Of a DNA stretch of 64,000 nucleotides, positions 3,227 to 44,049 are shown piece by piece. The stretch covers positions 480,001 through 544,000 of the forward strand of contig OZ244717.1 of the NCBI GenBank assembly GCA_965218975.1, written 5' to 3'. A program made the translations under genes and the position numbers. Origin of the DNA: Candidatus Oxydemutatoraceae bacterium. Its GTDB lineage: Bacteria > Pseudomonadota > Gammaproteobacteria > Poriferisulfidales > Oxydemutatoraceae. Within the stretch, counting starts at the first letter, position 1. Each line of letters starts with the position of its first letter. The notes under the pieces were generated by a model. It was given only the letters and a program-made list of their open reading frames with translations. It searched no databases and was not told the DNA's origin.

Positions 3227-3550
3227 TTAATCGGCAGTAAAAGTCGTTTGCGAAATGTTGCCGGATGTGTCGATATCGACTCGGGTTACTTGCGGCATTC
3301 GTTTTAGAATATAAGCGGCGGCAAGCTCCGCTAGCGAGTGATTTTCTTGAAGGATAGCTGTTAGTATGCGATCGGCGGCAATCTGACAACGTTGCAGGGT
3401 ATTCGGGCACTCAACCCACCGCCGGCTCATTTGCCGACCGCGATTTAGATTGCGGTCGATATCGGAGAAGAAATCTTCCGCCTCCTCAAGCAAGGTATCG
3501 GTGACTTCAATCCGATAAAGCGACCCATCAATGGCGACTGTTAATAGCAA
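3227..3550 (-). CDS. Conserved hypothetical protein (107 aa)
   Basis: Clean ORF with protein-like composition; motif FF..D..L..G.QMSR.WVE.P....RCQIAAD resembles hypothetical proteins I recall from sulfur oxidisers (recollection, not a search). Confidence 0.7.
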   Translation of the reverse strand: MLLTVAIDGSLYRIEVTDTLLEEAEDFFSDIDRNLNRGRQMSRRWVECPNTLQRCQIAADRILTAILQENHSLAELAAAYILKRMPQVTRVDIDTSGNISQTTFTAD

Positions 3551-3643: not shown

Positions 3644-3844
3644 TTAACGTTTTGAACCGATTTCTTTGTGTGCGTCTTCGATGATTTCCATTGCGATTTT
3701 CATACAATCCTCACGATATCCGGCGAGCACAGACTCATCCTCAGGTGTGAAGTAATCTTTCATAGAAACCCCTGCCTCGTGCTCTTTCAAAATGAATTTT
3801 TTTTGCATTTCTATCAGTCTTTTAATTTTTTCCTGCTTAGTCAT
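3644..3844 (-). CDS. Small hypothetical helical protein (66 aa)
   Basis: ATG with AAGGTG RBS-like sequence upstream; charged amphipathic helices; co-oriented with 3227-3550. Confidence 0.7.
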   Translation of the reverse strand: MTKQEKIKRLIEMQKKFILKEHEAGVSMKDYFTPEDESVLAGYREDCMKIAMEIIEDAHKEIGSKR

Positions 3845-4021: not shown

Positions 4022-4098
4022 GGGCGTGTAGCTCAGTTGGTTAGAGCACCGTCTTCACATGGCGGGGGTCGCTGGTTCGAGTCCGGCCATGCCCACCA
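4022..4098 (+). tRNA. tRNA-Val (anticodon CAC)
   Basis: Cloverleaf GGGCGTG..CATGCCC-A-CCA, D arm AGCTCAGTTGGTTAGAGC, anticodon arm CCGTC-TTCACAT-GGCGG, T loop GGTTCGAGTCC. Confidence 0.95.
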
Positions 4099-5135: not shown

Positions 5136-5357
5136 GGGTGAGACGCGTCCGGAAAACCGATCGGTTTTCAGCGGCGAACGACCCGACAAGGATGTCGGGG
5201 CTGGAGATCATTGACAGAACCAAGTCTCGTCATGGGTGAGACGCGCCCGGAAAACCAATTGGTTTTCAGCGGTGAACGACCCGACAAGGATGTCGGGGCT
5301 GGCGCTCATTGACAGAACCAAGTCGCGTCATGGATGACAGGCACTTTGCCGACAATC
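5136..5357. repeat. Two tandem 98-bp units (5136-5233, 5234-5331) plus 26-bp tail
   Basis: Exact 98-bp periodicity of GGGTGAGACGCG. Confidence 0.95.
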
Positions 5358-5606
5358 CGGCACAATCCGCCGACAACACGCCAACAAACACAAAACGGTT
5401 TCATAACCGGTCATTGAATGCTTCCGTATCGGCGAATAGCAGGTCTTCCGCATGATCGATACAATCTTCTTGGACGGTGCGGTTGAAGCGCACGATGTGC
5501 GCGTTCATTTTTGGACACTTGGGATAGGTCAGCCACTGTTCAATCACGGATGATTTCCGGATGAGCCGGGCAAACTGTCCTTGAAACTCGCTCCTGCCGT
5601 CCGTCA

Positions 5607-5926
5607 GGGTGAGACGCGCCCGGAAAACCGATCGGTTTTCAGCGGCGAACAACTCGACAAGGACGTCGGGGCTGGCGCTCATTGACAGAACCAAGTCTCG
5701 TCATGGGTGAGACGCGCCCGGAAAACCAATTGGTTTTCAGCGGCGAACGATCCGACAAGGATGTCGGGGCTGGGGCTTGTTGACAGAACCCAGTCGCGTC
5801 ATGGGTGAGACGCGCCCGGAAAACCAATTGGTTTTCAGCGGTGAACGACCCGACAAGGATGTCGGGGCTGGGGCTTGTTGACAGAACCCAGTCGCGTCAT
5901 GGATGACAGGCACTTTGCCGAAATTC
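5607..5926. repeat. Three tandem 98-bp units (5607-5704, 5705-5802, 5803-5900) plus tail
   Basis: Exact 98-bp periodicity. Confidence 0.95.
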
Positions 5927-6236: not shown

Positions 6237-6556
6237 GGGTGAGACGCGCCCGGAAAACCAATTGGTTTTCAGCGGCGAACGATCCGACAAGGATGTCGGG
6301 GCTGGGGCTTGTTGACAGAACCAAGTCGCGTCATGGGTGAGACGCGCCCGGAAAACCGATCGGTTTTCAGCGGCGAACGACTCGACAAGGACGTCGGGGC
6401 TGGCTCTCATTGACAGAACCAAGTCTCGTCATGGGGGAGACGCGCCCGGAAAACCAATTGGTTTTCAGCGGCGAACGACCCGACAAGGATGTCGGGGCTG
6501 GGGCTTGTTGACAGAACCAAGTCTCGTCATGGACGACAGGCACTTTGCTGACAATC
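6237..6556. repeat. Three tandem 98-bp units (6237-6334, 6335-6432, 6433-6530) plus 26-bp tail
   Basis: Exact 98-bp periodicity. Confidence 0.95.
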
Positions 6557-28856: not shown

Positions 28857-29354
28857 TTAATTCCCGCATTTACCTTCGCCGCACTTACCTTCTTTATCTT
28901 TTTTCATTTCACTTCCACCGCATTTACCTTCTTTATCTTTTTTCATTTCACTTCCACCGCATTTACCTTCTTTATCTTTTTTCATTTCACTTCCACCGCA
29001 TTTACCTTCGCCGCACTTACCTTCTTTATCTTTTTTCATTTCACTTCCACCGCATTTACCTTCGCCGCACTTACCTTCTTTATCTTTTTTCATTTCACTT
29101 CCACCGCATTTACCTTCGCCGCACTTGCCTTCTTTATCTTTTTTCATTTCACTTCCACCGCATTTACCTTCGCCGCATTTACCTTCCATGCTTTTCTTCA
29201 TTGAATGGTTGTCGGCCAATTGCATATAACCGGAAGAGAGCTCTTGCATTTCAAAAGGGGATTGTTCGGCATTCATATTCGCGGATAATGTTCCCGCAAT
29301 CACAGTTGAAACAATGGCGACAGACGCCTTGAGTTTAAATTTTTTGTGCTCCAT
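28857..29354 (-). CDS. Secreted EGKCG-repeat low-complexity protein (HvfA/bufferin-type RiPP metallophore precursor)
   Basis: Signal peptide, SPF...ELSSGY.QLA motif, 12 EGKCG units. Confidence 0.85.
   Translation of the reverse strand: MEHKKFKLKASVAIVSTVIAGTLSANMNAEQSPFEMQELSSGYMQLADNHSMKKSMEGKCGEGKCGGSEMKKDKEGKCGEGKCGGSEMKKDKEGKCGEGKCGGSEMKKDKEGKCGEGKCGGSEMKKDKEGKCGGSEMKKDKEGKCGGSEMKKDKEGKCGEGKCGN
28863..29186. repeat. Intragenic tandem repeat with 54-bp and 39-bp units (EGKCG[EGKCG]GSEMKKDK)
   Basis: Near-identical CCTTCTTTATCTTTTTTCATTTCACTTCCACCGCATTTA units. Confidence 0.95.
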
Positions 29355-33852: not shown

Positions 33853-34536
33853 TGTATAGTGCCAGATACATATGGGACTCACAGCATGACTCGAAAAGGT
33901 GACCGATATGCAATATCAGCACATCGGCCACCGCATCAAAGGTTTCTATATGAGCCAATTTTGCTTCAAAAATAGAGGCTATTATGAACACAACGGCTCA
34001 ACAGAAATATGATGCCCTATTATTTTGGGAGGGTTGTAACTCCCGAACGCATTCAAGATCGGTCGCAGTACTTTGTACCGCTGGCGCCGACGTTATCGCC
34101 GCACTGGCCTCAGCGCCTTGCATGATCGCGGCAAAGCGCCGCGTAAGAGGCGCCAGCGGATCTGGCCGCAACCGATTCAGTGTGAAACCGTTTTGCGCTT
34201 GTTGCCAGATTGTCGGCAAAGTGCCTGTCGTCCATGACGAGACTTGGTTCTGTCAATGAACCCGAGCCTCGACGTCCTTGTCGGGTCGTTCGCCGCTGAA
34301 AACCAATTGGTTTTCCGGGCGCGTCTCACCCATGACGAGACTTGGTTCTGTCAATGAACCCCAGCCCCGACGTCCTTGTTGGGCCGTTCGCCGCTGAAAA
34401 CCGATCGGTTTTCCGGGCGCGTCTCACCCTGCACCGTCCTCATGCCGGCAACGGACAGAAAGTACCGATCCGAATGTTACTGCCGAACGCTTCCCTCGAA
34501 ACCCTTCAAAAATCCCATTTAGGATGACATCATACA
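33853..34536 (+). mobile_element. Defective IS481-family element (copy C), internally deleted, carrying two 98-bp units
   Basis: Starts TGTATAGTGCCAGATACA, ends AAATCCCATTTAGGATGACATCATACA; same transposase fragments as copies A and B. Confidence 0.85.
34208..34429. repeat. 26-bp tail plus two tandem 98-bp units (34234-34331, 34332-34429), reverse complement relative to the other blocks
   Basis: ATGACGAGACTTGGTTCTGTCAATG...GAAAACC(AATT/GATC)GGTTTTCCGGGCGCGTCTCACCC. Confidence 0.95.
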
Positions 34537-38768: not shown

Positions 38769-40244
38769 TTAAATTCCTAACGGAATATCAAGCACGATCC
38801 ACGCACCAAACAGCATTAGCCAGCCACTGCCGATCGCCACAGTATATGGAAGCATCACTGCAAGCAATGTACCAATACCCGCGCGTCGGTCGTAGCGGTA
38901 TAGAAACGTTGCGACTAAGGCAAAGTACGGCATCAAGGGAGTTATAATATTTGTCGCGCTGTCGCCGATTCGGTATGCCGCCTGCGTCGCTTCCGGACTG
39001 ATGCCCACGAGATATAACATCGGGATAAAAATCGGTGCGATCAATGTCCACTTCGCCGACGAGCTACCAATCAGCAGGTTAGTTATTGCCGCGAGTGCAG
39101 TGAATGCGACCAAAATGAGACTGCTCGGCAGCTCAAGACTGCGTAACCACGTGGCGCTGTGAATCGCACTAATCAAACCGAGATTAGTCCAGTGAAAATA
39201 GCTGACTGCTTGCGCCGCAAAAAACATCAGCACGATGTAGCCCGCCATCGTGCGCATACTGTTCTCCATGCTGTCAATAACACCGCATTGAGGTGTGAAC
39301 CGTCCGCTAGCGCGCCCGAAAATCCAGCCGGCCAATCCAGCGTATAAAGTGATGACGACAACGATACCTTTGATGAAAGGCGACGATGCAAAATTACCGC
39401 TACCGCGGAGTACGCCGCTATCAGGCCACAGCGCTATGGTCAGTGACAGACCGACCAACAAAGTAAACCATTTGGTGTGACGTAACCCGCGGCGATCGGC
39501 CACCGTCAATCGGTGAACGTCCGGCAGAGCAATTGTCGATTGATCGGGACGATAGTCTCCAAGGCGCGGCGCGACGATCCGTTCGGTAACCCATGCACCG
39601 ATAAACGCCACTAGCGGCGTCGAAGCCAACATAAAGAAGTAATTACTCGTCGCGCTGACTTCGTAATCTGCAACCAACAGCCGCATCGCCGAACTTGAAA
39701 TGCCGGCAAGCAACGGGTCAAGCGGTCCAATCAGGAAGTTAGCGCTAAACCCGCCGCTGACGCCGGCAAAAGCAGCAGCAATTCCCGCAATCGGGTGCCG
39801 CCCTGCCGCAATAAACAAAGAACCGGCCAACGGAATCAACACAACATAACCCACATCGGCGGCAAGACTTGAGAGAACACCCGCTAGTACCACCGAAAAA
39901 CTGAGTAACGCGGGCGGCATACGTAAGATCAGCGCACGCAACACAGTGGGTAGTAAGCCCGACTCTTCAGCAATGCCAAACCCTAGCATGGCAACCAATA
40001 CGATGCCGACCGGTGCAAAGTTGGTAAAGTTGCTTACTGTTTCGGCAAGAATTCGATGCAAGCCGGCGACGCTGATGAGATTGACCGCAACAATCGTCTC
40101 GCCGCCGATCGGATGTGTTGCCGACACATTGAACGTAGAACACAACCACGACAGTAACGGAATCAAAATACACAACGCAACGAACAACGCTGCCGGGTGC
40201 GGTAAGCGATTACCCAGCATTTCAATGCGGTCAAGAAAAGACAT
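38769..40244 (-). CDS. AbgT family transporter
   Basis: FLD.IE.LGN.LPHP, HPIAG..A.FAGVSGGFSAN, YRIGDS.TNIITP. Confidence 0.92.
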   Translation of the reverse strand: MSFLDRIEMLGNRLPHPAALFVALCILIPLLSWLCSTFNVSATHPIGGETIVAVNLISVAGLHRILAETVSNFTNFAPVGIVLVAMLGFGIAEESGLLPTVLRALILRMPPALLSFSVVLAGVLSSLAADVGYVVLIPLAGSLFIAAGRHPIAGIAAAFAGVSGGFSANFLIGPLDPLLAGISSSAMRLLVADYEVSATSNYFFMLASTPLVAFIGAWVTERIVAPRLGDYRPDQSTIALPDVHRLTVADRRGLRHTKWFTLLVGLSLTIALWPDSGVLRGSGNFASSPFIKGIVVVITLYAGLAGWIFGRASGRFTPQCGVIDSMENSMRTMAGYIVLMFFAAQAVSYFHWTNLGLISAIHSATWLRSLELPSSLILVAFTALAAITNLLIGSSSAKWTLIAPIFIPMLYLVGISPEATQAAYRIGDSATNIITPLMPYFALVATFLYRYDRRAGIGTLLAVMLPYTVAIGSGWLMLFGAWIVLDIPLGI

Positions 40245-40805
40245 TAATAATGCATCGCTTGGTCGGCACTTATAACAAGCAGTATATAAAAAGCTCTCGG
40301 TACTTGTTTTTGAGTCGTCTGATAATCTTCCACGCTTCCTACCTCCCTCGAAGCATTTGTTGCTTATGCCCGCCGAATGCCGCCGGCGCGCGGGGCGATA
40401 CCGCATAGGAGTTGATTGTAATCCATGACATTAAGCAGCTGTCAATAAAAAATTATCTCGCAATGAACTGCTCCGTGACTAATCCGACGCTAAACAGCTG
40501 TTGAAGTCAATGCCGTCATTGAGCAGGCACAGACTATTCTGCATTAAAGTATACTGGCGGTGGAATTGATATTAATCTGAGTCTCGATTGCGGGAACCAA
40601 GCAAAAAAACGAGACTTTGTCGCGCGTTTTTTTCAATAAAATGAGGGATAAAAAAAGAAACCTTAAAGCATAGAAGATAAGTGTCTAGAGAAATCCACAA
40701 TACAGGCATCGTCAAGTGCCGGTGTATATGTATAGTGTCAACTACAGCCGGAAAGATTAAAATAGGCATTCGGCTGCCAATGATAATTAAGACGGGACTT
40801 TAACG

Positions 40806-41747
40806 TTGATGAGACCAGATACTAAAACTGCCGCTGATACCGCACATGCGAAATATCGGGTTCTACAAGCAGCGTCCGCTGTGCGACAAGATTTTAAATT
40901 CCTTACCAATCTGCGCAAAAACCAACGATGGCGGGCATTTAAGTTGGCACAAACAAACATTTCCTACAAGCGTTTGATGGTACCGATTAAAAAACCTGTT
41001 CAGATCAGCGCCGCTGAAAAAACAGCTCTCCGGAACAATTGTCGAGATTATAACTTAAGTTTTTACCGTTGCGCTTCTCTCTGCGACCCGCAAACTCTTC
41101 TTACATTCTGGTCCCAGTTGGGATTAACCGATGTAATTGCTAATCCGGAAGCAGACCATTATGGACTCAGCCATATTCAAGTCAAATCTGATTCACGCTA
41201 TATCCCGTACTCAGATAAACCTCTGCTGTGGCACACTGACGGATACTACAATGTCGGAGCAAAAACCATCTACTCATTTGCAATGCACTGCATCCGTCCC
41301 GCCGTATCGGGCGGAAAAAATTACTACTTTGACCCTGAGATCCTGTACTTATTGATCGGCGATGAAAATCCGGACTACATTCGGGTGCTGGTACACCCAC
41401 TAGCAATGACGATACCGGCAAATCCAGAAATTGGCATGAATTATCGCGACGAGGTCAGTGTGCCGATGCTTACGTATGACAATGGAAAATTGCTATTTCG
41501 CTATACCGAACGCACTCATGCTATCAAGTGGCGTGACGATGCTATGCTGACTCAAGCACGCGCGTTTATACGCAACACACTACGTAACAACACACGTTAC
41601 CGCTTGGGTTACAAACTCAATGCCAACGAAGGCATAATTTGCAACAATGTGTTACATAGCCGAACAGCTTTTGTCCACCATCCGACAACTAATCCCGAAC
41701 AATCTCGCCTGCTGTACCGTGCCAGATTCCACAACGCTATCGCTTAA
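40806..41747 (+). CDS. TauD/TfdA-family Fe(II)/2-oxoglutarate dioxygenase-like protein
   Basis: HxD (WHTDGYYN), distal His and Arg (NNVLHSRTAF), C-terminal RLLYRAR; start uncertain. Confidence 0.85.
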   Translation: MMRPDTKTAADTAHAKYRVLQAASAVRQDFKFLTNLRKNQRWRAFKLAQTNISYKRLMVPIKKPVQISAAEKTALRNNCRDYNLSFYRCASLCDPQTLLTFWSQLGLTDVIANPEADHYGLSHIQVKSDSRYIPYSDKPLLWHTDGYYNVGAKTIYSFAMHCIRPAVSGGKNYYFDPEILYLLIGDENPDYIRVLVHPLAMTIPANPEIGMNYRDEVSVPMLTYDNGKLLFRYTERTHAIKWRDDAMLTQARAFIRNTLRNNTRYRLGYKLNANEGIICNNVLHSRTAFVHHPTTNPEQSRLLYRARFHNAIA

Positions 41748-41777
41748 TCGCATTGTTACCGGATCGCGCGACCGGCG

Positions 41778-41972
41778 ATGCTAAAATTAAGTACGATTCT
41801 TTTGCGACATCATAACTTATCAGGCTTTGATGAGTTGGTTACAGTCATCCGCGAACATGCCGGTGGCGGAGAAATTTTTCTTGAGTTTGACATTCGACCG
41901 CCGTTCCCGGATACGCCCGACAACTGGCAAGACCTGCTTGAAGCCACATTTACCGGTACAATGCGCAATTAA
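41778..41972 (+). CDS. Conserved small hypothetical protein (64 aa)
   Basis: ATG ORF filling the gap between the TauD-like and Cas6-like genes; motif D..PPFPDTP.NW.D.LE. Confidence 0.75.
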   Translation: MLKLSTILLRHHNLSGFDELVTVIREHAGGGEIFLEFDIRPPFPDTPDNWQDLLEATFTGTMRN

Positions 41973-42015
41973 AACGAGACTATACAAACCTGTTACGACG
42001 GACGGATTGCTCCCT

Positions 42016-42702
42016 ATGCACTGGCAAGAAGAAAAGGACGAAGAAAGGAAACAAACAAAAATATCAAGCAAGGTGTCGGATCTTTGCTTCAAAATTGACT
42101 GTCGCAGTCTGCCTATTGATCACGGTTGGATATTACAGGAAGCTCTGGAGGAAGAGCTGCCTTGGCTAGCCAATGAGCCGTTTGCGGCCATTCACGATAT
42201 TCATGGTGCGGAAAGCGGTAACGGCTGGATTCGCCCGAGTGGTGGTGACGTTATTTATCTATCGCGACGCGCCAGATTACGCATTCGTTTGCCAAACCAC
42301 CGTATTGACGATGCAAAGCTCCTAGAGCATCGAGAACTGAAACTTGCTGAATATATACTCACAATCGGGGCGAGCCGTGTATTACCACTGATTCAGCATA
42401 AAACTTTATTCGCACGTTATCTGCCGGATAATGCCCTTAACGAAGATACTTTTCTGGATGCTGTAATACAGATGCTTGCGCAAAAGAGAATTCACCCGCC
42501 GCGGATTATGAGCGGTAAACAACGTACCATGTACACTCCCAAAGGCAATCTGAACACTCGCAGTGTAATGATTGACGGATTAGACCCGGCGAGTTCATTG
42601 TTACTTCAAGAGGAAGGACTCGGGCTACAGCATCGTTTGGGTTGCGGTATATTTCTACCACACAAAGGGATCGGTGCAGTTTATAAATTAAACAACACCT
42701 AA
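42016..42702 (+). CDS. Orphan Cas6-like RAMP protein (Cas6/Cmx6-type)
   Basis: N-terminal DL.F.I....LP.DH..L, C-terminal glycine-rich loop LQEEGLGLQHRLGCGIFLPHK (GhGxxxxhGhG); likely start MHWQEE. Confidence 0.8.
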   Translation: MHWQEEKDEERKQTKISSKVSDLCFKIDCRSLPIDHGWILQEALEEELPWLANEPFAAIHDIHGAESGNGWIRPSGGDVIYLSRRARLRIRLPNHRIDDAKLLEHRELKLAEYILTIGASRVLPLIQHKTLFARYLPDNALNEDTFLDAVIQMLAQKRIHPPRIMSGKQRTMYTPKGNLNTRSVMIDGLDPASSLLLQEEGLGLQHRLGCGIFLPHKGIGAVYKLNNT

Positions 42703-42717
42703 TATAAAGGAGGTTTT

Positions 42718-43062
42718 ATGGCAACAATAACGGTTGATGAAAAAAGTATTAAGCTTACCGCAACCGGTTTCCTAGTCAACACTGAGGACTGGAATGAACA
42801 AGTGGCAAAGGCAATCGCACAAGAACAGCAAGTTGAACTTACCGATAAACATTGGGATATTATCAGGTATCTACGAGACGAGTTTTTTAAAAATAATGAA
42901 AATCAGCCTACTACGCGCAATATCGTTAAAAGCATGCAAAAAAAGTGGGATGATAAAAGTGTTTCCGCTGCAACACTGTACAAAATGTTTCCAAAGGACC
43001 CGAGCAAACAAGGCGGTATGATCGCCGGATTGCCCGAAAGCCTACGTAAGGGCGGCTATTAA
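42718..43062 (+). CDS. DsrC/TusE-family protein lacking all cysteines
   Basis: GFLVN.EDWNE.VA..IA, ELT..HW.II.YLR, LY.MFP..P, IAGLP; ends ESLRKGGY; strong RBS AAAGGAGG. Confidence 0.9.
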   Translation: MATITVDEKSIKLTATGFLVNTEDWNEQVAKAIAQEQQVELTDKHWDIIRYLRDEFFKNNENQPTTRNIVKSMQKKWDDKSVSAATLYKMFPKDPSKQGGMIAGLPESLRKGGY

Positions 43063-43077
43063 GTCATTGCGCAACCG

Positions 43078-44049
43078 ATGAGCATCGAACGAATCAAAGC
43101 GTCGGTTGCGCAAGACTTATCATTAGTTGATACTTTAGTAAAACGACAACTGCAATCGCCGCTACCGTTGATTAACGAGCTCGGTCTGCATTTGATCGCA
43201 GGCGGCGGCAAACGTCTGCGCCCTCTACTTGTTTTGTTGCTCGCGCGCGCGTTGAATTATCGTGGCGAGCAGCATTTACTAGTCGCAGCGATGATCGAAT
43301 TGATTCATACGGCAACGCTGCTACATGACGATGTAGTGGATAATTCAAGCGTCCGGCGCCATAGAAAAACCGCAAAAGAGATCTGGGGTAATGATGCAAG
43401 CGTGTTAGTCGGAGATTTTCTTTATTCGCGCGCCTTCCAAATCATCGTAGAAGTCGGTTCATTGGAAGTTGCCGGCATTCTTGCCGATACAACAAATACC
43501 ATTGCCGAAGGTGAAGTTCGCCAACTGCTGAACCGGCACCAAGCCGACATCGATGAGGCAACTTTCTTTGAAGTTATCCGCTGTAAAACAGCAGTCCTAT
43601 TTGCCGCCGGCACACATATCAGCGCACTACTTGCCAATTCCAACGCCCAAACAATCGCTTCGATGCGTGAATTCGGTATGAGTCTCGGCATCGGTTTTCA
43701 ACTGGTCGACGACATTCTTGATTACGCCGAAGGAGGGCGCTCAGGTAAAGAAGTTGGTAATGACTTGAATGAAGGCAAACCGACTCTACCATTGATTTAT
43801 GCGCTGCAAAACTGTTCGGAAGTTGAGCGAATGACATTAGAAAAAACTTTGACCAATAAAAAAAATCACTCCGAAGAGGTGGCAACCGCACTCAACATCG
43901 TGCGTAAATCCGGCGGTTTGGAATACACTCTCAATAAAGCGAAAAAATACATTGATCAAGCACAATCGTCTTTATCCGGTATCCCGGACTCATCCTATAA
44001 ACATGCACTAAATGAGTTAATGACATTTTTGCTCAATCGTACGCACTAA
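43078..44049 (+). CDS. ispB: Polyprenyl (octaprenyl) diphosphate synthase
   Basis: GGKRLRP, LLHDDVVD, FQLVDDILD, EGKPTLP. Confidence 0.93.
   Translation: MSIERIKASVAQDLSLVDTLVKRQLQSPLPLINELGLHLIAGGGKRLRPLLVLLLARALNYRGEQHLLVAAMIELIHTATLLHDDVVDNSSVRRHRKTAKEIWGNDASVLVGDFLYSRAFQIIVEVGSLEVAGILADTTNTIAEGEVRQLLNRHQADIDEATFFEVIRCKTAVLFAAGTHISALLANSNAQTIASMREFGMSLGIGFQLVDDILDYAEGGRSGKEVGNDLNEGKPTLPLIYALQNCSEVERMTLEKTLTNKKNHSEEVATALNIVRKSGGLEYTLNKAKKYIDQAQSSLSGIPDSSYKHALNELMTFLLNRTH

What the first reader, a model, noticed from the sequence alone, without database searches (positions are those of the whole stretch)
40806..43062. CRISPR-less Cas6-like protein in an apparent operon with a TauD-like dioxygenase, a 64-aa protein and a Cys-free DsrC
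Seen: four co-oriented genes with gaps of 30, 43 and 15 bp. The third has the Cas6 C-terminal glycine-rich loop (GLGLQHRLGCGIF). There is no other cas gene or CRISPR array in the window, and the flanks are housekeeping genes (an AbgT-family transporter, ispB). Established: Cas6 RAMP proteins bind and cleave RNA hairpins, DsrC/TusE are sulfur carriers, and TauD-family enzymes are Fe/2OG oxygenases. I recall similar neighbourhoods in other sulfur-oxidising proteobacteria but know of no functional description. Inference: a domesticated Cas6 in a sulfur-metabolism module, for example post-transcriptional control or processing of dsr/sox RNAs, or an RNA-modification pathway.
Basis: partly seen in the sequence, partly recalled or inferred. 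Interest (0 to 1): 0.8.

Follow-up and report, generated by a model that had tools for sequence, protein, structure and literature searches.

The report
Ex-CRISPR Cas6 tied to sulfur oxidation
A protein descended from the CRISPR RNA-cutting enzyme Cas6 sits in a conserved four-gene operon that travels with the sulfur-oxidation (dsr) genes rather than with CRISPR, so a Cas protein seems to have been recruited into energy metabolism.

Summary
Window 40806-43062 holds four co-oriented genes with gaps of 30, 43 and 15 bp: a TauD-like Fe/2OG dioxygenase, a 64-aa protein, a Cas6/Cmx6-family protein and a Cys-free DsrC paralogue.

"CRISPR-less" holds for the window only. The genome has a type I-G and a type II CRISPR-Cas locus elsewhere, and neither calls for a free-standing Cas6.

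The operon is conserved. In 80 related loci the dioxygenase is found in 72, the small protein in 75 and the DsrC paralogue in 74. In 58 of 81 loci the operon lies divergent to dsrABEFHC.

In 401 genomes of the same class:
- 120 of 123 carriers of the Cas6-like gene have dsrA.
- 120 of 127 dsrA genomes carry the Cas6-like gene.
- 67 of the 123 carriers have no Cas1.

In other classes of the phylum, 0 of 47 dsrA genomes carry it, but 35 of 47 keep the dioxygenase. That dioxygenase gene is already in print as dsrQ.

The Cas6-like protein keeps the Cas6 fold, the PxDH histidine and the glycine-rich loop. I found no paper linking Cas6 to dsr.

Function is not shown. My best guess (about 0.4) is RNA-level control of Dsr. 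Verdict: a real, apparently undescribed exaptation of Cas6. Interest 0.7.

The parts
40806..41747 (+). T = TauD-like Fe(II)/2-oxoglutarate dioxygenase, the probable DsrQ orthologue
   Evidence: PF02668, E 4.5e-12. H143-x-D145...H284 (ORF numbering) and several Arg are invariant in 69 homologues. Conservation starts near residue 28, so a start at 40806/40809 is plausible. The closest solved relatives are TmpA and gamma-butyrobetaine dioxygenase, and only at E 4e-8 to 3e-5. Found in 72 of 80 related loci.
41778..41972 (+). s = 64-aa acidic protein of no known family; the gene that is nearly always next to the Cas6-like gene
   Evidence: No Pfam or NCBIfam hit at E <= 1. Found in 75 of 80 loci. 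13 columns are invariant, including D38, P41, D45, T46, P47 and W50. Median pI 4.6. The AF2 model has pLDDT 87.9, with three helices and a long PPFPDTP loop. No PDB fold match at E <= 0.001. A homologue also follows T in a genome of another class (L094:1199-1447).
42016..42702 (+). C = Cas6L, a Cas6/Cmx6-family RAMP protein outside any cas operon
   Evidence: PF09559, E 5.1e-53. TIGR02807, 102.8 bits against a cut-off of 98.85. AF2 pLDDT 85.4. Foldseek top hits are the type I-B CAST Cas6 chains 8fcu_B/8fcj_B (TM 0.73-0.79, E 1.6e-15), followed by other Cas6 structures. It is the only PF09559 match in the genome.
42718..43062 (+). R = DsrC/TusE-family paralogue without the two redox cysteines, ending in RKGGY
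   Evidence: PF04358, E 7.8e-34. The closest solved chain is A. vinosum DsrC 1yx3, E 3.6e-30. 64 of 64 copies that follow Cas6L end in RKGGY. Mean column identity is 71%. The genome's real DsrC (G000 296537-296869) ends ...KQACKYAGLPKPTGCV.
3644..3844 (-). y = 66-aa protein. In 49 of 80 related loci it directly follows R; here it is displaced by 37 kb
   Evidence: A cluster of 49 + strand ORFs starts about 510-640 nt after the Cas6L stop. tblastn of the members against the genome hits G000 483650-483838, E 1.7e-19. The ORF is listed. No NCBIfam or PADLOC family. Whether it belongs to the module is inferred from neighbourhood alone.

Best explanation
Window 40806-43062 is a four-gene operon: dsrQ-like dioxygenase (T), small acidic protein (s), Cas6-like protein (Cas6L) and Cys-free DsrC paralogue (R).

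What I consider shown (confidence about 0.9):
- It is a lineage-specific accessory operon of the oxidative Dsr sulfur-oxidation system.
- Its usual place is divergent to dsrA. In this genome it has been moved about 228 kb away from dsrABEFHC...
- Cas6L descends from the Cmx6-type (type I-MYXAN / I-B) pre-crRNA endonuclease but no longer belongs to CRISPR. It is single-copy, lies outside cas operons, and is inherited with dsrA whether or not the genome has Cas1.

What I infer (confidence about 0.4):
- Cas6L keeps Cmx6's PxDH histidine, its glycine-rich loop and a basic strand (SRRxRxxxRxP) under strong conservation. So it probably still recognises, and perhaps cuts, one specific RNA, and gives post-transcriptional control or processing of a Dsr-related transcript.
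- It probably acts together with s.
- R cannot carry sulfur. Its invariant RKGGY arm would dock onto a partner of DsrC, or onto another member of the operon, as a sensor or decoy.
- T would add an O2/2-oxoglutarate-dependent input, either by hydroxylating a small molecule or by hydroxylating one of these proteins.
For: Homology and fold:
- PF09559 E 5.1e-53.
- The family profile against PDB finds 8fcj_B (type I-B Cas6) at E 5.9e-23.
- Foldseek TM 0.73-0.79; the first 10 ranked chains are all Cas6 or Cas6-related proteins.
- hhalign against a bona fide Cmx6 from a full I-MYXAN locus (L088, with array, Cas3, Cmx8, Cas7, Cas5 and Cas4-Cas1) gives probability 99.7. The PxDH His and the GxGxxRxxGCGxF loop align.

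Conserved operon:
- In 80 loci from other species, T is in 72, s in 75 and R in 74. The window's flanks are found in 2 or fewer.
- Architectures in 81 loci: T-s-C-R in 42, T-s-X-C-R in 17 and other combinations in 22.
- dsrAB lies divergently upstream in 58 of 81. Of the 23 without it, 18 have under 3.9 kb of upstream sequence. Pfam confirmed DsrA, DsrB, DsrE and DsrH on L049.

Phyletic pattern in 401 genomes of the class:
- 123 genomes have a family-type hit, and 120 of them have dsrA.
- 120 of 127 dsrA+ genomes have the family.
- 67 of the 123 have no Cas1 at E <= 1e-10.
- The weaker hits (99-118 bits, in G021, G307 and G308) lie on the same contig as Cas1.

The genome's own CRISPR systems do not call for it. 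The type I-G locus carries Csb2, a Cas5-Cas6 fusion (PMC3150331 passage). The other locus is type II.

Conservation of Cas6L: 27 invariant columns in 28 sequences at 41-65% identity. They include H36, R85, R91, R134, S183, Q198 and the GCG of the loop.
Against: - No RNA target was found. Rfam gave nothing at E <= 1 over 39800-43600.
- The C-R spacers share no hairpin.
- The only conserved non-coding elements near the operon are in the dsrA/T and R/y spacers. RNAalifold gave the dsrA/T element -3.6 kcal/mol with 0 compensatory pairs. It reads as a promoter plus palindromic operators.
- Cas6L is not basic overall: median pI 6.3 in 28 members.
- It carries a family-specific invariant stretch around HGAESGNGWxRP, about nine residues of which have no counterpart in the two true CRISPR Cas6 proteins compared. 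It also has an N-terminal extension that is absent from the true Cmx6 L088 and lies outside the aligned part of 8fcj_B. This points to a changed function.
- 0 of 47 dsrA+ genomes from other classes of the phylum have it. Dsr chemistry therefore does not need it.
- The roles given to s, R and T are inference only.
Confidence: 0.4

Rival explanations
1. Protein-only module. Cas6L has lost RNA work and serves as a scaffold or adaptor. With s and R it acts on a protein of the Dsr pathway (DsrC, DsrAB or DsrEFH), for example in assembly, protection or an O2-dependent hydroxylation switch. In that switch T would hydroxylate the exposed PPFPDTP loop of s or the RKGGY arm of R.
For: - Near-neutral to acidic pI of Cas6L (median 6.3). 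s and the optional protein X are strongly acidic (4.6 and 4.4).
- Cas6L has a new invariant stretch and an N-terminal extension that true Cas6 lacks.
- s is the constant neighbour. It occurs with T in another class and with Cas6L where T and R are missing next to it (4 loci of type -s-C-).
- R keeps the DsrC fold family and an invariant arm.
- The catalytic triad of T is invariant.
- T is missing from the Thiohalocapsa locus L080. That organism I recall to be an anoxygenic phototroph.
Against: - The PxDH His, the glycine-rich loop and the basic strand shared with true Cmx6 are kept. A pure scaffold would be hard to reconcile with that.
- No fusion of Cas6L to another domain was found among proteins of 400-2000 aa (weak evidence).
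- No contact between the proteins has been shown.
Confidence: 0.3
2. Transcriptional regulator module. R, a DsrC-fold protein (I recall a helix-turn-helix-like motif in this fold), binds the palindromes in the dsrA/T and R/y spacers, possibly helped by Cas6L and s. In this way it controls dsr and its own operon at the DNA level.
For: - A conserved element of about 85 nt is found in 31 of 58 dsrA/T spacers. It contains AGTCTAG, which in the dsrA sense reads as a TAGACT -10-like box with a TTGTCA-like -35. It also holds two palindromes.
- A related GGGATA/GGGAATA motif lies between R and y.
- A divergent arrangement next to the regulated operon is typical of regulators (established knowledge).
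- CTAGACT with TTGGGATAT lies about 110 nt upstream of this genome's dsrA.
Against: - The window's own T and y upstream regions lack the TGGGRATA motif: 1 match in 64 kb, elsewhere, against 3.1 expected.
- DNA binding by R is not tested.
- This reading does not explain why a Cas6 is kept.
Confidence: 0.15
3. Sulfonate-to-sulfite module, the speculation in print for DsrQ. T splits an organosulfonate and releases sulfite that feeds the Dsr/sulfite pathway. s, Cas6L and R are helpers of unknown kind.
For: - Passages of PMC7596348 and PMC9371685 give this speculation for TauD/DsrQ.
- T belongs to PF02668 with an intact triad.
- T follows dsrA across classes: 37 of 38 T+ genomes in the phylum sample are dsrA+.
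Against: - The nearest solved relatives are TmpA and gamma-butyrobetaine dioxygenases, at E 4e-8 and weaker; taurine dioxygenase was not among the 5 chains listed at E <= 0.01.
- This reading gives no role to Cas6L, s or R, which are as conserved as T.
- s-X-C-R exists without T in L080.
Confidence: 0.12
4. Ordinary CRISPR Cas6 working in trans on one of the genome's CRISPR arrays.
For: - The genome has a type I-G array whose repeat ends in ATTGAAGC, a Cas6-type handle by my recall.
- NCBIfam places the protein just above the Cmx6 cut-off.
Against: - 67 of 123 carriers have no Cas1.
- Carriers almost always have dsrA: 120 of 123.
- The gene lies in a conserved non-cas operon.
- The I-G locus has its own Csb2 Cas5-Cas6 fusions.
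- No I-MYXAN genes were seen at either of the genome's two Cas1-bearing CRISPR-Cas loci.
- A true Cmx6 scores 187.7 bits on TIGR02807, against 102.8 here.
Confidence: 0.02

Closest known systems
Cas6/Cmx6 of type I-MYXAN (I-B) CRISPR-Cas (TIGR02807, PF09559; solved relative 8fcj_B/8fcu_B, the Cas6 of a type I-B CAST Cascade)
   Same: Clear homology. The same double-RRM RAMP fold. The glycine-rich loop is shared with both CRISPR Cas6 proteins compared; the PxDH histidine is shared with the true Cmx6 from L088, while 8fcj_B has Asn at that position.
   Different: - Not in a cas operon, with no array nearby.
- Follows dsrA rather than Cas1.
- Has an extra N-terminal MxWQE segment and an invariant HGAESGNGWxRP stretch, part of which is an insert.
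- Near-neutral pI.
- Just above the curated Cmx6 cut-off: 102.8 against 98.85 bits.
DsrC / TusE / RspA family (A. vinosum DsrC, PDB 1yx3)
   Same: PF04358 domain over its whole length and a flexible C-terminal arm after GLP. It is encoded beside dsr genes in most genomes.
   Different: Both redox cysteines are replaced: KQAC becomes KQ[AG]G, and TGCV becomes RKGGY. The arm is two residues longer, so no trisulfide or persulfide chemistry is possible. The name RspA for Cys-less members is taken from passages of PMC8477390. I did not test membership of that subgroup.
DsrQ, the tauD-like gene transcribed divergently from dsrA (named by Lenk et al. 2012, as described in PMC7596348)
   Same: TauD family. 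It lies directly upstream of dsrA and divergent to it in 58 of 81 loci. It follows dsrA in other classes too.
   Different: The passages I read name only the tauD-like gene. They do not mention the small protein, the Cas6-like gene or the Cys-free DsrC that follow it. I could not read Lenk et al. 2012 itself. I made no sequence comparison with their DsrQ.
Other CRISPR derivatives that left adaptive immunity (Streptomyces I-E derivative with a STAND NTPase, haloarchaeal HRAMP, CASTs), reviewed in PMC8730458
   Same: Cas RAMP proteins kept without an adaptation module or array and put to another use (passages).
   Different: Those keep several effector subunits and are read as defence or transposition systems. 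Here a single Cas6 stands alone, in an operon tied to an energy-metabolism pathway.

Membership tests
Cas6 (Cmx6 subtype; PF09559 / TIGR02807) | Sequence match above the curated cut-offs | tested here: met
   PF09559: 180.3 bits against 26.7. TIGR02807: 102.8 against 98.85, which is marginal. A true Cmx6 scores 187.7.
Cas6 (Cmx6 subtype; PF09559 / TIGR02807) | RAMP fold (two ferredoxin-like/RRM domains) with a C-terminal glycine-rich loop | tested here: met
   AF2 pLDDT 85.4. Foldseek TM 0.73-0.79 to 8fcu_B/8fcj_B, and all top hits are Cas6. The loop GLGxxRxLGCGxF is conserved.
Cas6 (Cmx6 subtype; PF09559 / TIGR02807) | Histidine at the beta1-alpha1 loop. I recall this as the catalytic position in several Cas6 enzymes. 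| tested here: met
   H36 is invariant in 28 of 28. It aligns with the His of PVDH in the true Cmx6 from L088. 8fcj_B has Asn there. Only presence was tested, not activity.
Cas6 (Cmx6 subtype; PF09559 / TIGR02807) | Encoded in a cas operon or next to a CRISPR array | tested here: not met
   No array in the window. The operon partners are T, s and R in 72-75 of 80 loci. The contrast is L088, with an array and a full cas operon.
Cas6 (Cmx6 subtype; PF09559 / TIGR02807) | Occurs together with CRISPR adaptation genes | tested here: not met
   67 of 123 carriers have no Cas1 hit at E <= 1e-10, while 120 of 123 have dsrA.
Cas6 (Cmx6 subtype; PF09559 / TIGR02807) | Binds and cleaves CRISPR repeat RNA | not testable with these tools
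   Needs biochemistry. A search with a true I-MYXAN repeat found only chance-level matches in the genome and none in the 80 loci.
DsrC (sulfur-carrying subunit) | Two conserved cysteines in the C-terminal arm | tested here: not met
   The window protein has no Cys. 64 of 64 copies end in RKGGY. 8 of the 64 have one Cys at another arm position (GGCPQS).
DsrC/TusE/RspA superfamily | PF04358 domain / TIGR03342 | tested here: met
   E 7.8e-34. TIGR03342: 103.7 bits against 53.5. 1yx3 at E 3.6e-30.
TauD/TfdA Fe(II)/2OG dioxygenases (DsrQ) | PF02668 match and the HxD...H facial triad | tested here: met
   46.9 bits against 27. H143, D145 and H284 are invariant.
TauD/TfdA Fe(II)/2OG dioxygenases (DsrQ) | Position directly upstream of dsrA and divergent to it (as DsrQ is described in PMC7596348) | tested here: inconclusive
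   Met in 58 of 81 related loci. Not met in the window itself, where dsrA lies at G000 292954, about 228 kb away. No sequence of a published DsrQ was compared.
TauD/TfdA Fe(II)/2OG dioxygenases (DsrQ) | Sulfite release from a sulfonate | not testable with these tools
   This is a speculation in print only. The nearest solved relatives are TmpA and BBOX.

The most novel reading that the evidence does not exclude
Cas6L is still a sequence-specific RNA-binding endoribonuclease. Together with a Cys-free DsrC decoy and the O2/2-oxoglutarate-dependent hydroxylase DsrQ, it forms an oxygen-responsive post-transcriptional switch for dissimilatory sulfur oxidation. That would be the first Cas protein recruited to govern a core energy-metabolism pathway, and it is present in hundreds of sulfur-oxidising species.
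Probability: 0.2. Interest if true: 0.9.

Novelty: new variant of a known kind. Interest (0 to 1): 0.7.

Why it matters
1. Exaptation. It would be a clean and very widespread case of a single Cas protein leaving CRISPR for a housekeeping pathway.

2. The Dsr system. It adds three uncharacterised, strongly conserved genes (s, Cas6L, R) to the oxidative Dsr system, a key route of the global sulfur cycle. It also gives the orphan gene dsrQ a genetic context.

3. Annotation. The sources that name these proteins call them 'type I-MYXAN CRISPR-associated protein Cas6/Cmx6' (names listed). PADLOC's Cas6 models hit the protein as well. Surveys of CRISPR content in sulfur oxidisers will therefore count false orphan cas genes.

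4. Tools. A Cas6 with a single natural RNA target, if it has one, would be a ready-made RNA-processing tool.

Tried and rejected
RNA target. I looked for one in several ways and found none.
- Rfam at E <= 1 over window 39800-43600 gave no match.
- The 66 C-R spacers, folded one by one, show no shared hairpin.
- An all-against-all short-word BLAST of 421 non-coding segments around the operon found only the dsrA/T element and an R/y motif.
- RNAalifold on 30 copies of the dsrA/T element gave -3.6 kcal/mol with no compensatory pair.
- A hand-defined 6-bp palindrome is paired in 153 of 180 cells on the + strand and 162 of 180 on the - strand. That does not separate an RNA stem from a DNA operator.
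- A true I-MYXAN repeat, taken from L088, finds only chance-level matches in the genome and none in the loci.

Small proteins.
- The ESM Atlas returned only the proteins' own clusters. For s these are auto-named 'sulfur relay protein DsrC' and have no Pfam family; for X they are 'hypothetical'.
- hhalign of s against the DsrC paralogue gave probability 0.2.
- Foldseek with the s model found nothing at E <= 0.001.

Fusions. No relative of 400-2000 aa was found. This is weak evidence.

Complex prediction. The four chains T, s, Cas6L and R were sent with Cas6L as the partner. Verdict: no answer (score 0.00, mark 0.32; controls not run). This is evidence neither for nor against binding.

Expression. 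No RNA holder was listed for window 40400-43100, and the five holders are kept as contigs.

Motif in the window. TGGGRATA occurs once in 64 kb and not near the operon, against 3.1 expected.

Promoter and terminator scan of 40200-43400: not above the shuffles.

Literature. I found no paper that links Cas6 with dsr. Of the 9 distinct papers that hold Cas6 together with DsrC or dsrAB, I read the Cas6 passages of 5. All concern ordinary CRISPR loci. The other four (a mangrove-rhizosphere microbiome study, two sulfate-reducer genome papers and a gypsum-karst-lake virus paper) I saw only as search listings. Supplements were closed and may hold gene tables that bear on this.


Full report
**1. What is there**

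The + strand of window 40806-43062 carries four ORFs:
- T, 40806-41747, 313 aa.
- s, 41778-41972, 64 aa.
- Cas6L, 42016-42702, 228 aa from the ATG at 42016. The longer ORF from 41827 overlaps s.
- R, 42718-43062, 114 aa.

Pfam and NCBIfam give the following:
- T: TauD, PF02668, E 4.5e-12.
- s: nothing.
- Cas6L: Cas6, PF09559, E 5.1e-53. TIGR02807 cas6_cmx6 scores 102.8 bits against a cut-off of 98.85.
- R: DsrC, PF04358, E 7.8e-34.

R contains no cysteine. The start of Cas6L at 42016 is backed by an N-terminal MxWQE motif, with W3 invariant in 28 of 28 homologues. For T, conservation begins near residue 28 of the ORF, so a start at 40806 or 40809 is reasonable.

**2. The genome is not CRISPR-less**

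The window is bases 480001-544000 of a single 2.081 Mb contig. Tandem Repeats Finder sees no CRISPR array in the window. PF09559 has only this one match in the genome. Cas1, however, matches twice elsewhere.

At about 332-354 kb there is a type I-G locus. It has two effector modules (Cas3g, Cas8g, Cas7g, Csb2), then Cas4-Cas1 and Cas2, and an array of about 5 kb. Csb2 is described as a Cas5-Cas6 fusion in a passage of PMC3150331.

At about 1.64 Mb there is a type II locus with a short array, Cas1 and Cas2. Its cas9 is split into two ORFs.

Neither system is of the I-MYXAN kind, and neither calls for a free-standing Cas6.

**3. It is a real Cas6 relative**

- A profile of 28 family members finds the Cas6 of a type I-B CAST Cascade (8fcj_B) at E 5.9e-23.
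- An AlphaFold2 model (pLDDT 85.4) matches 8fcu_B/8fcj_B with TM 0.73-0.79 and E 1.6e-15. Pyrococcus, Thermus and other Cas6 structures follow.
- As a control I fetched a weak hit from another genome of the class (G021, locus L088). It lies in a full I-MYXAN locus with a CRISPR array, Cas3, Cmx8, Cas7/DevR, Cas5/DevS and Cas4-Cas1. It scores 187.7 bits on TIGR02807.
- hhalign of the family against that true Cmx6 gives probability 99.7. The PxDH histidine and the glycine-rich loop align.

The dsr-linked family differs from true Cas6 in four ways:
- An 18-residue N-terminal extension.
- An invariant stretch around HGAESGNGWxRP, about nine residues of which have no counterpart in either true Cas6.
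- A short C-terminal tail.
- A near-neutral pI, median 6.3.

**4. The operon is conserved and sits next to dsr**

Of these, 572 encode a relative, and the best 80 were kept. They are mostly gammaproteobacterial MAGs by their record titles.

BLAST of the window's ORFs against ORFs of those 80 loci finds T in 72, s in 75 and R in 74. ispB is found in 2, and no hit was listed for the AbgT-like ORF.

De novo clustering gives these architectures over 81 loci, the window included:
- T-s-C-R in 42.
- T-s-X-C-R in 17. X is a 235-aa acidic protein of no family.
- T-s-C in 9.
- s-C in 4.
- Other combinations in 9.

In 58 of 81 loci a dsrA-dsrB-dsrE-dsrF-dsrH-dsrC string lies upstream on the other strand. 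Pfam confirmed DsrA, DsrB, DsrE and DsrH on L049. Of the 23 loci without it, 18 have under 3.9 kb of upstream sequence. Five have about 6 kb and no dsrAB: L023, L058, L067, L086 and the window.

A further 67-aa gene, y, follows R in 49 of 80 loci.

In this genome the pieces are scattered:
- dsrABEFHC and downstream ORFs, with sizes and order as in dsrMKLJOPN (my inference), at 292954-306427.
- y at window 3644-3844.
- The four-gene operon at 520806-523062.
- Three other common neighbours at 775-778 kb: a 2OG oxygenase, DUF6866 and a 202-aa ORF.

**5. Phyletic pattern**

I searched 401 genomes sampled from the window's class. One had candidates that could not be scored in the Cas6L search.
- 125 have a Cas6L-profile match at E <= 1e-10.
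- 127 have dsrA (TIGR02064, E <= 1e-30).
- 137 have Cas1.

I set aside two genomes whose only hit is weak (114 and 118 bits). That leaves 123 carriers. Their best scores are 139-363 bits, and the three lowest are cut by contig ends.

Of these 123, 120 have dsrA. The three exceptions are G132, G167 and G258, which are 90%, 100% and 81% complete. Seven dsrA+ genomes lack the gene; four of these are at most 90% complete. Of the 123 carriers, 67 have no Cas1.

The weak hits in G021, G307 and G308 lie on contigs that also carry Cas1.

Related genomes are not independent, so I give these figures as counts, not as tests.

I then searched a second sample of 191 genomes from the phylum.
- 49 have dsrA, and 47 of these are from other classes.
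- Cas6L was found only in G000 and one other genome of the same class. That is 0 of 47 other-class dsrA+ genomes.
- T orthologues (303-387 bits) are in 38 genomes. Of these 37 are dsrA+, and 35 are among the 47 of other classes.
- In one other-class genome (G550) T is followed by an s homologue. In another (G523) it is not.

So T, and at least sometimes s, is the older companion of oxidative Dsr. Cas6L and R were found only in genomes of the window's class.

**6. The other three proteins**

T keeps the HxD...H triad (H143, D145, H284) and several invariant Arg. Its nearest solved relatives are TmpA, DfmD and gamma-butyrobetaine dioxygenases, and only at E 4e-8 to 3e-5.

R is closest to A. vinosum DsrC (1yx3, E 3.6e-30). 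Both cysteines are replaced, and the arm ends in RKGGY in 64 of 64 copies. Eight of the 64 have one Cys at another arm position. The genome's true DsrC ends in KQACKYAGLPKPTGCV.

s is acidic and has 13 invariant columns, including a DxxPxxxDTPxxW loop. It folds with confidence into three helices but matches no known fold.

**7. What is in print**

- A passage of PMC7596348 (section 'Special Gene Arrangements') says that Lenk et al. 2012 named a tauD-like gene divergent from dsrA 'dsrQ'. They found it in most aerobic chemotrophic sulfur oxidisers they analysed. Its speculated role is sulfite release from sulfonates.
- PMC9371685 repeats this speculation.
- Lenk et al. 2012 is not held.
- PMC8477390 uses the family name DsrC/TusE/RspA.
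- PMC8730458, a review of CRISPR exaptations, mentions no dsr-linked Cas6 in its Cas6 passages.
- None of my ten searches found a paper joining Cas6 to dsr (see Tried and rejected). Supplements were closed.

**8. How it may work**

What is shown is the genetics: a Cas6 descendant fixed in a Dsr accessory operon and independent of CRISPR. The mechanism is inferred.

For an RNA role:
- The PxDH His, the glycine-rich loop, the SRRxRxxxRxP strand and R134/S183 are invariant or nearly so across sequences that are only 41-65% identical.
- The His and the loop are shared with true Cmx6.

Against an RNA role:
- I found no conserved hairpin.
- The protein is not basic overall.
- The conserved non-coding DNA nearby reads as a dsrA promoter with two palindromes. 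In the dsrA sense there is a TTGTCA-like -35 and a TAGACT -10-like box.
- A related motif lies between R and y.

Those palindromes could equally be operators for a DNA-binding protein, R being a candidate.

The absence of Cas6L from dsrA+ genomes of other classes means that it is not part of Dsr catalysis. That fits a regulatory or accessory role.

I therefore put about 0.9 on 'exapted Cas6 in a Dsr accessory operon' and about 0.4 on 'RNA-level control'. The protein-only module (0.3), the DNA-level regulator (0.15) and the sulfonate module (0.12) are the rivals. Trans-acting CRISPR Cas6 is close to excluded (0.02).

**9. Verdict**

The RNA function is untested. Part of the operon (dsrQ) is already named in print. 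The Cas6L, s and R genes appear undescribed in the literature I could search, and databases name Cas6L as a CRISPR protein. Novelty: a new variant of a known kind. Interest: 0.7.

Noticed in passing
window 5136-5337, 5602-5906, 6237-6532 and 34232-34429 (reverse orientation): A 98-bp unit, GC-rich and with an internal palindrome, stands in short tandem arrays of 2-3 copies at 90-94% matches. My k-mer scan of the whole genome flagged about 25 further places with regularly spaced repeats, which may belong to the same family.
   Followed up: no
G000 about 1641590-1645650 (locus L007:7590-11651, - strand); outside the window: The cas9 of the type II locus is split into two ORFs. One is 714 aa, matching Cas9 model positions 1-641. 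The other is 437 aa, matching positions 707-1069. Cas1, Cas2 and a short array of 36-nt repeats lie beside it.
   Followed up: partly
G000 332000-349000 (locus L006); outside the window: The type I-G locus has two effector gene sets in tandem. The first is Cas3g, Cas8g1/Csx17, Cas7g and Csb2. The second is Cas3g, Cas8g2, Cas7g and Csb2. One Cas4-Cas1, Cas2 and an array of about 5 kb follow.
   Followed up: partly
window 3227-3550 (-) and 3644-3844 (-): The y homologue (66 aa) is followed by a 107-aa ORF that also has relatives near the operon in other genomes (tblastn E 1e-35 to L061:9526-9888). Neither has an NCBIfam family. tRNA-Val lies just upstream at 4022-4098.
   Followed up: partly
loci L009-L082, dsrA/T spacer (alignment A5), and G000 292820-292850: A conserved element of about 85 nt is found in 31 of 58 spacers: AGTCTAG, about 21 nt, AAAAYCCYMCC-ATGGGGKG, about 20 nt, TTATCCCAAnAGAGATAG. 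This genome keeps CTAGACT with TTGGGATAT about 110 nt upstream of dsrA. It is probably the dsr promoter with operators; the binding protein is unknown.
   Followed up: partly
window 28864-29188: Nested tandem repeats of 15, 39, 54 and 93 bp (up to 98% matches) lie in a T/C-rich stretch. I did not check whether this is coding.
   Followed up: no
window 43063-43077: Only 15 nt separate the stop of R from the ispB start, and no terminator-like site was found. In this genome ispB may be co-transcribed with the operon.
   Followed up: no
G000 about 731000-732400, 932700-951700 and other places; outside the window: A short word recurs at a spacing of about 640 bp over many kilobases (seen in the hits). 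This suggests very large genes built of repeated domains.
   Followed up: no
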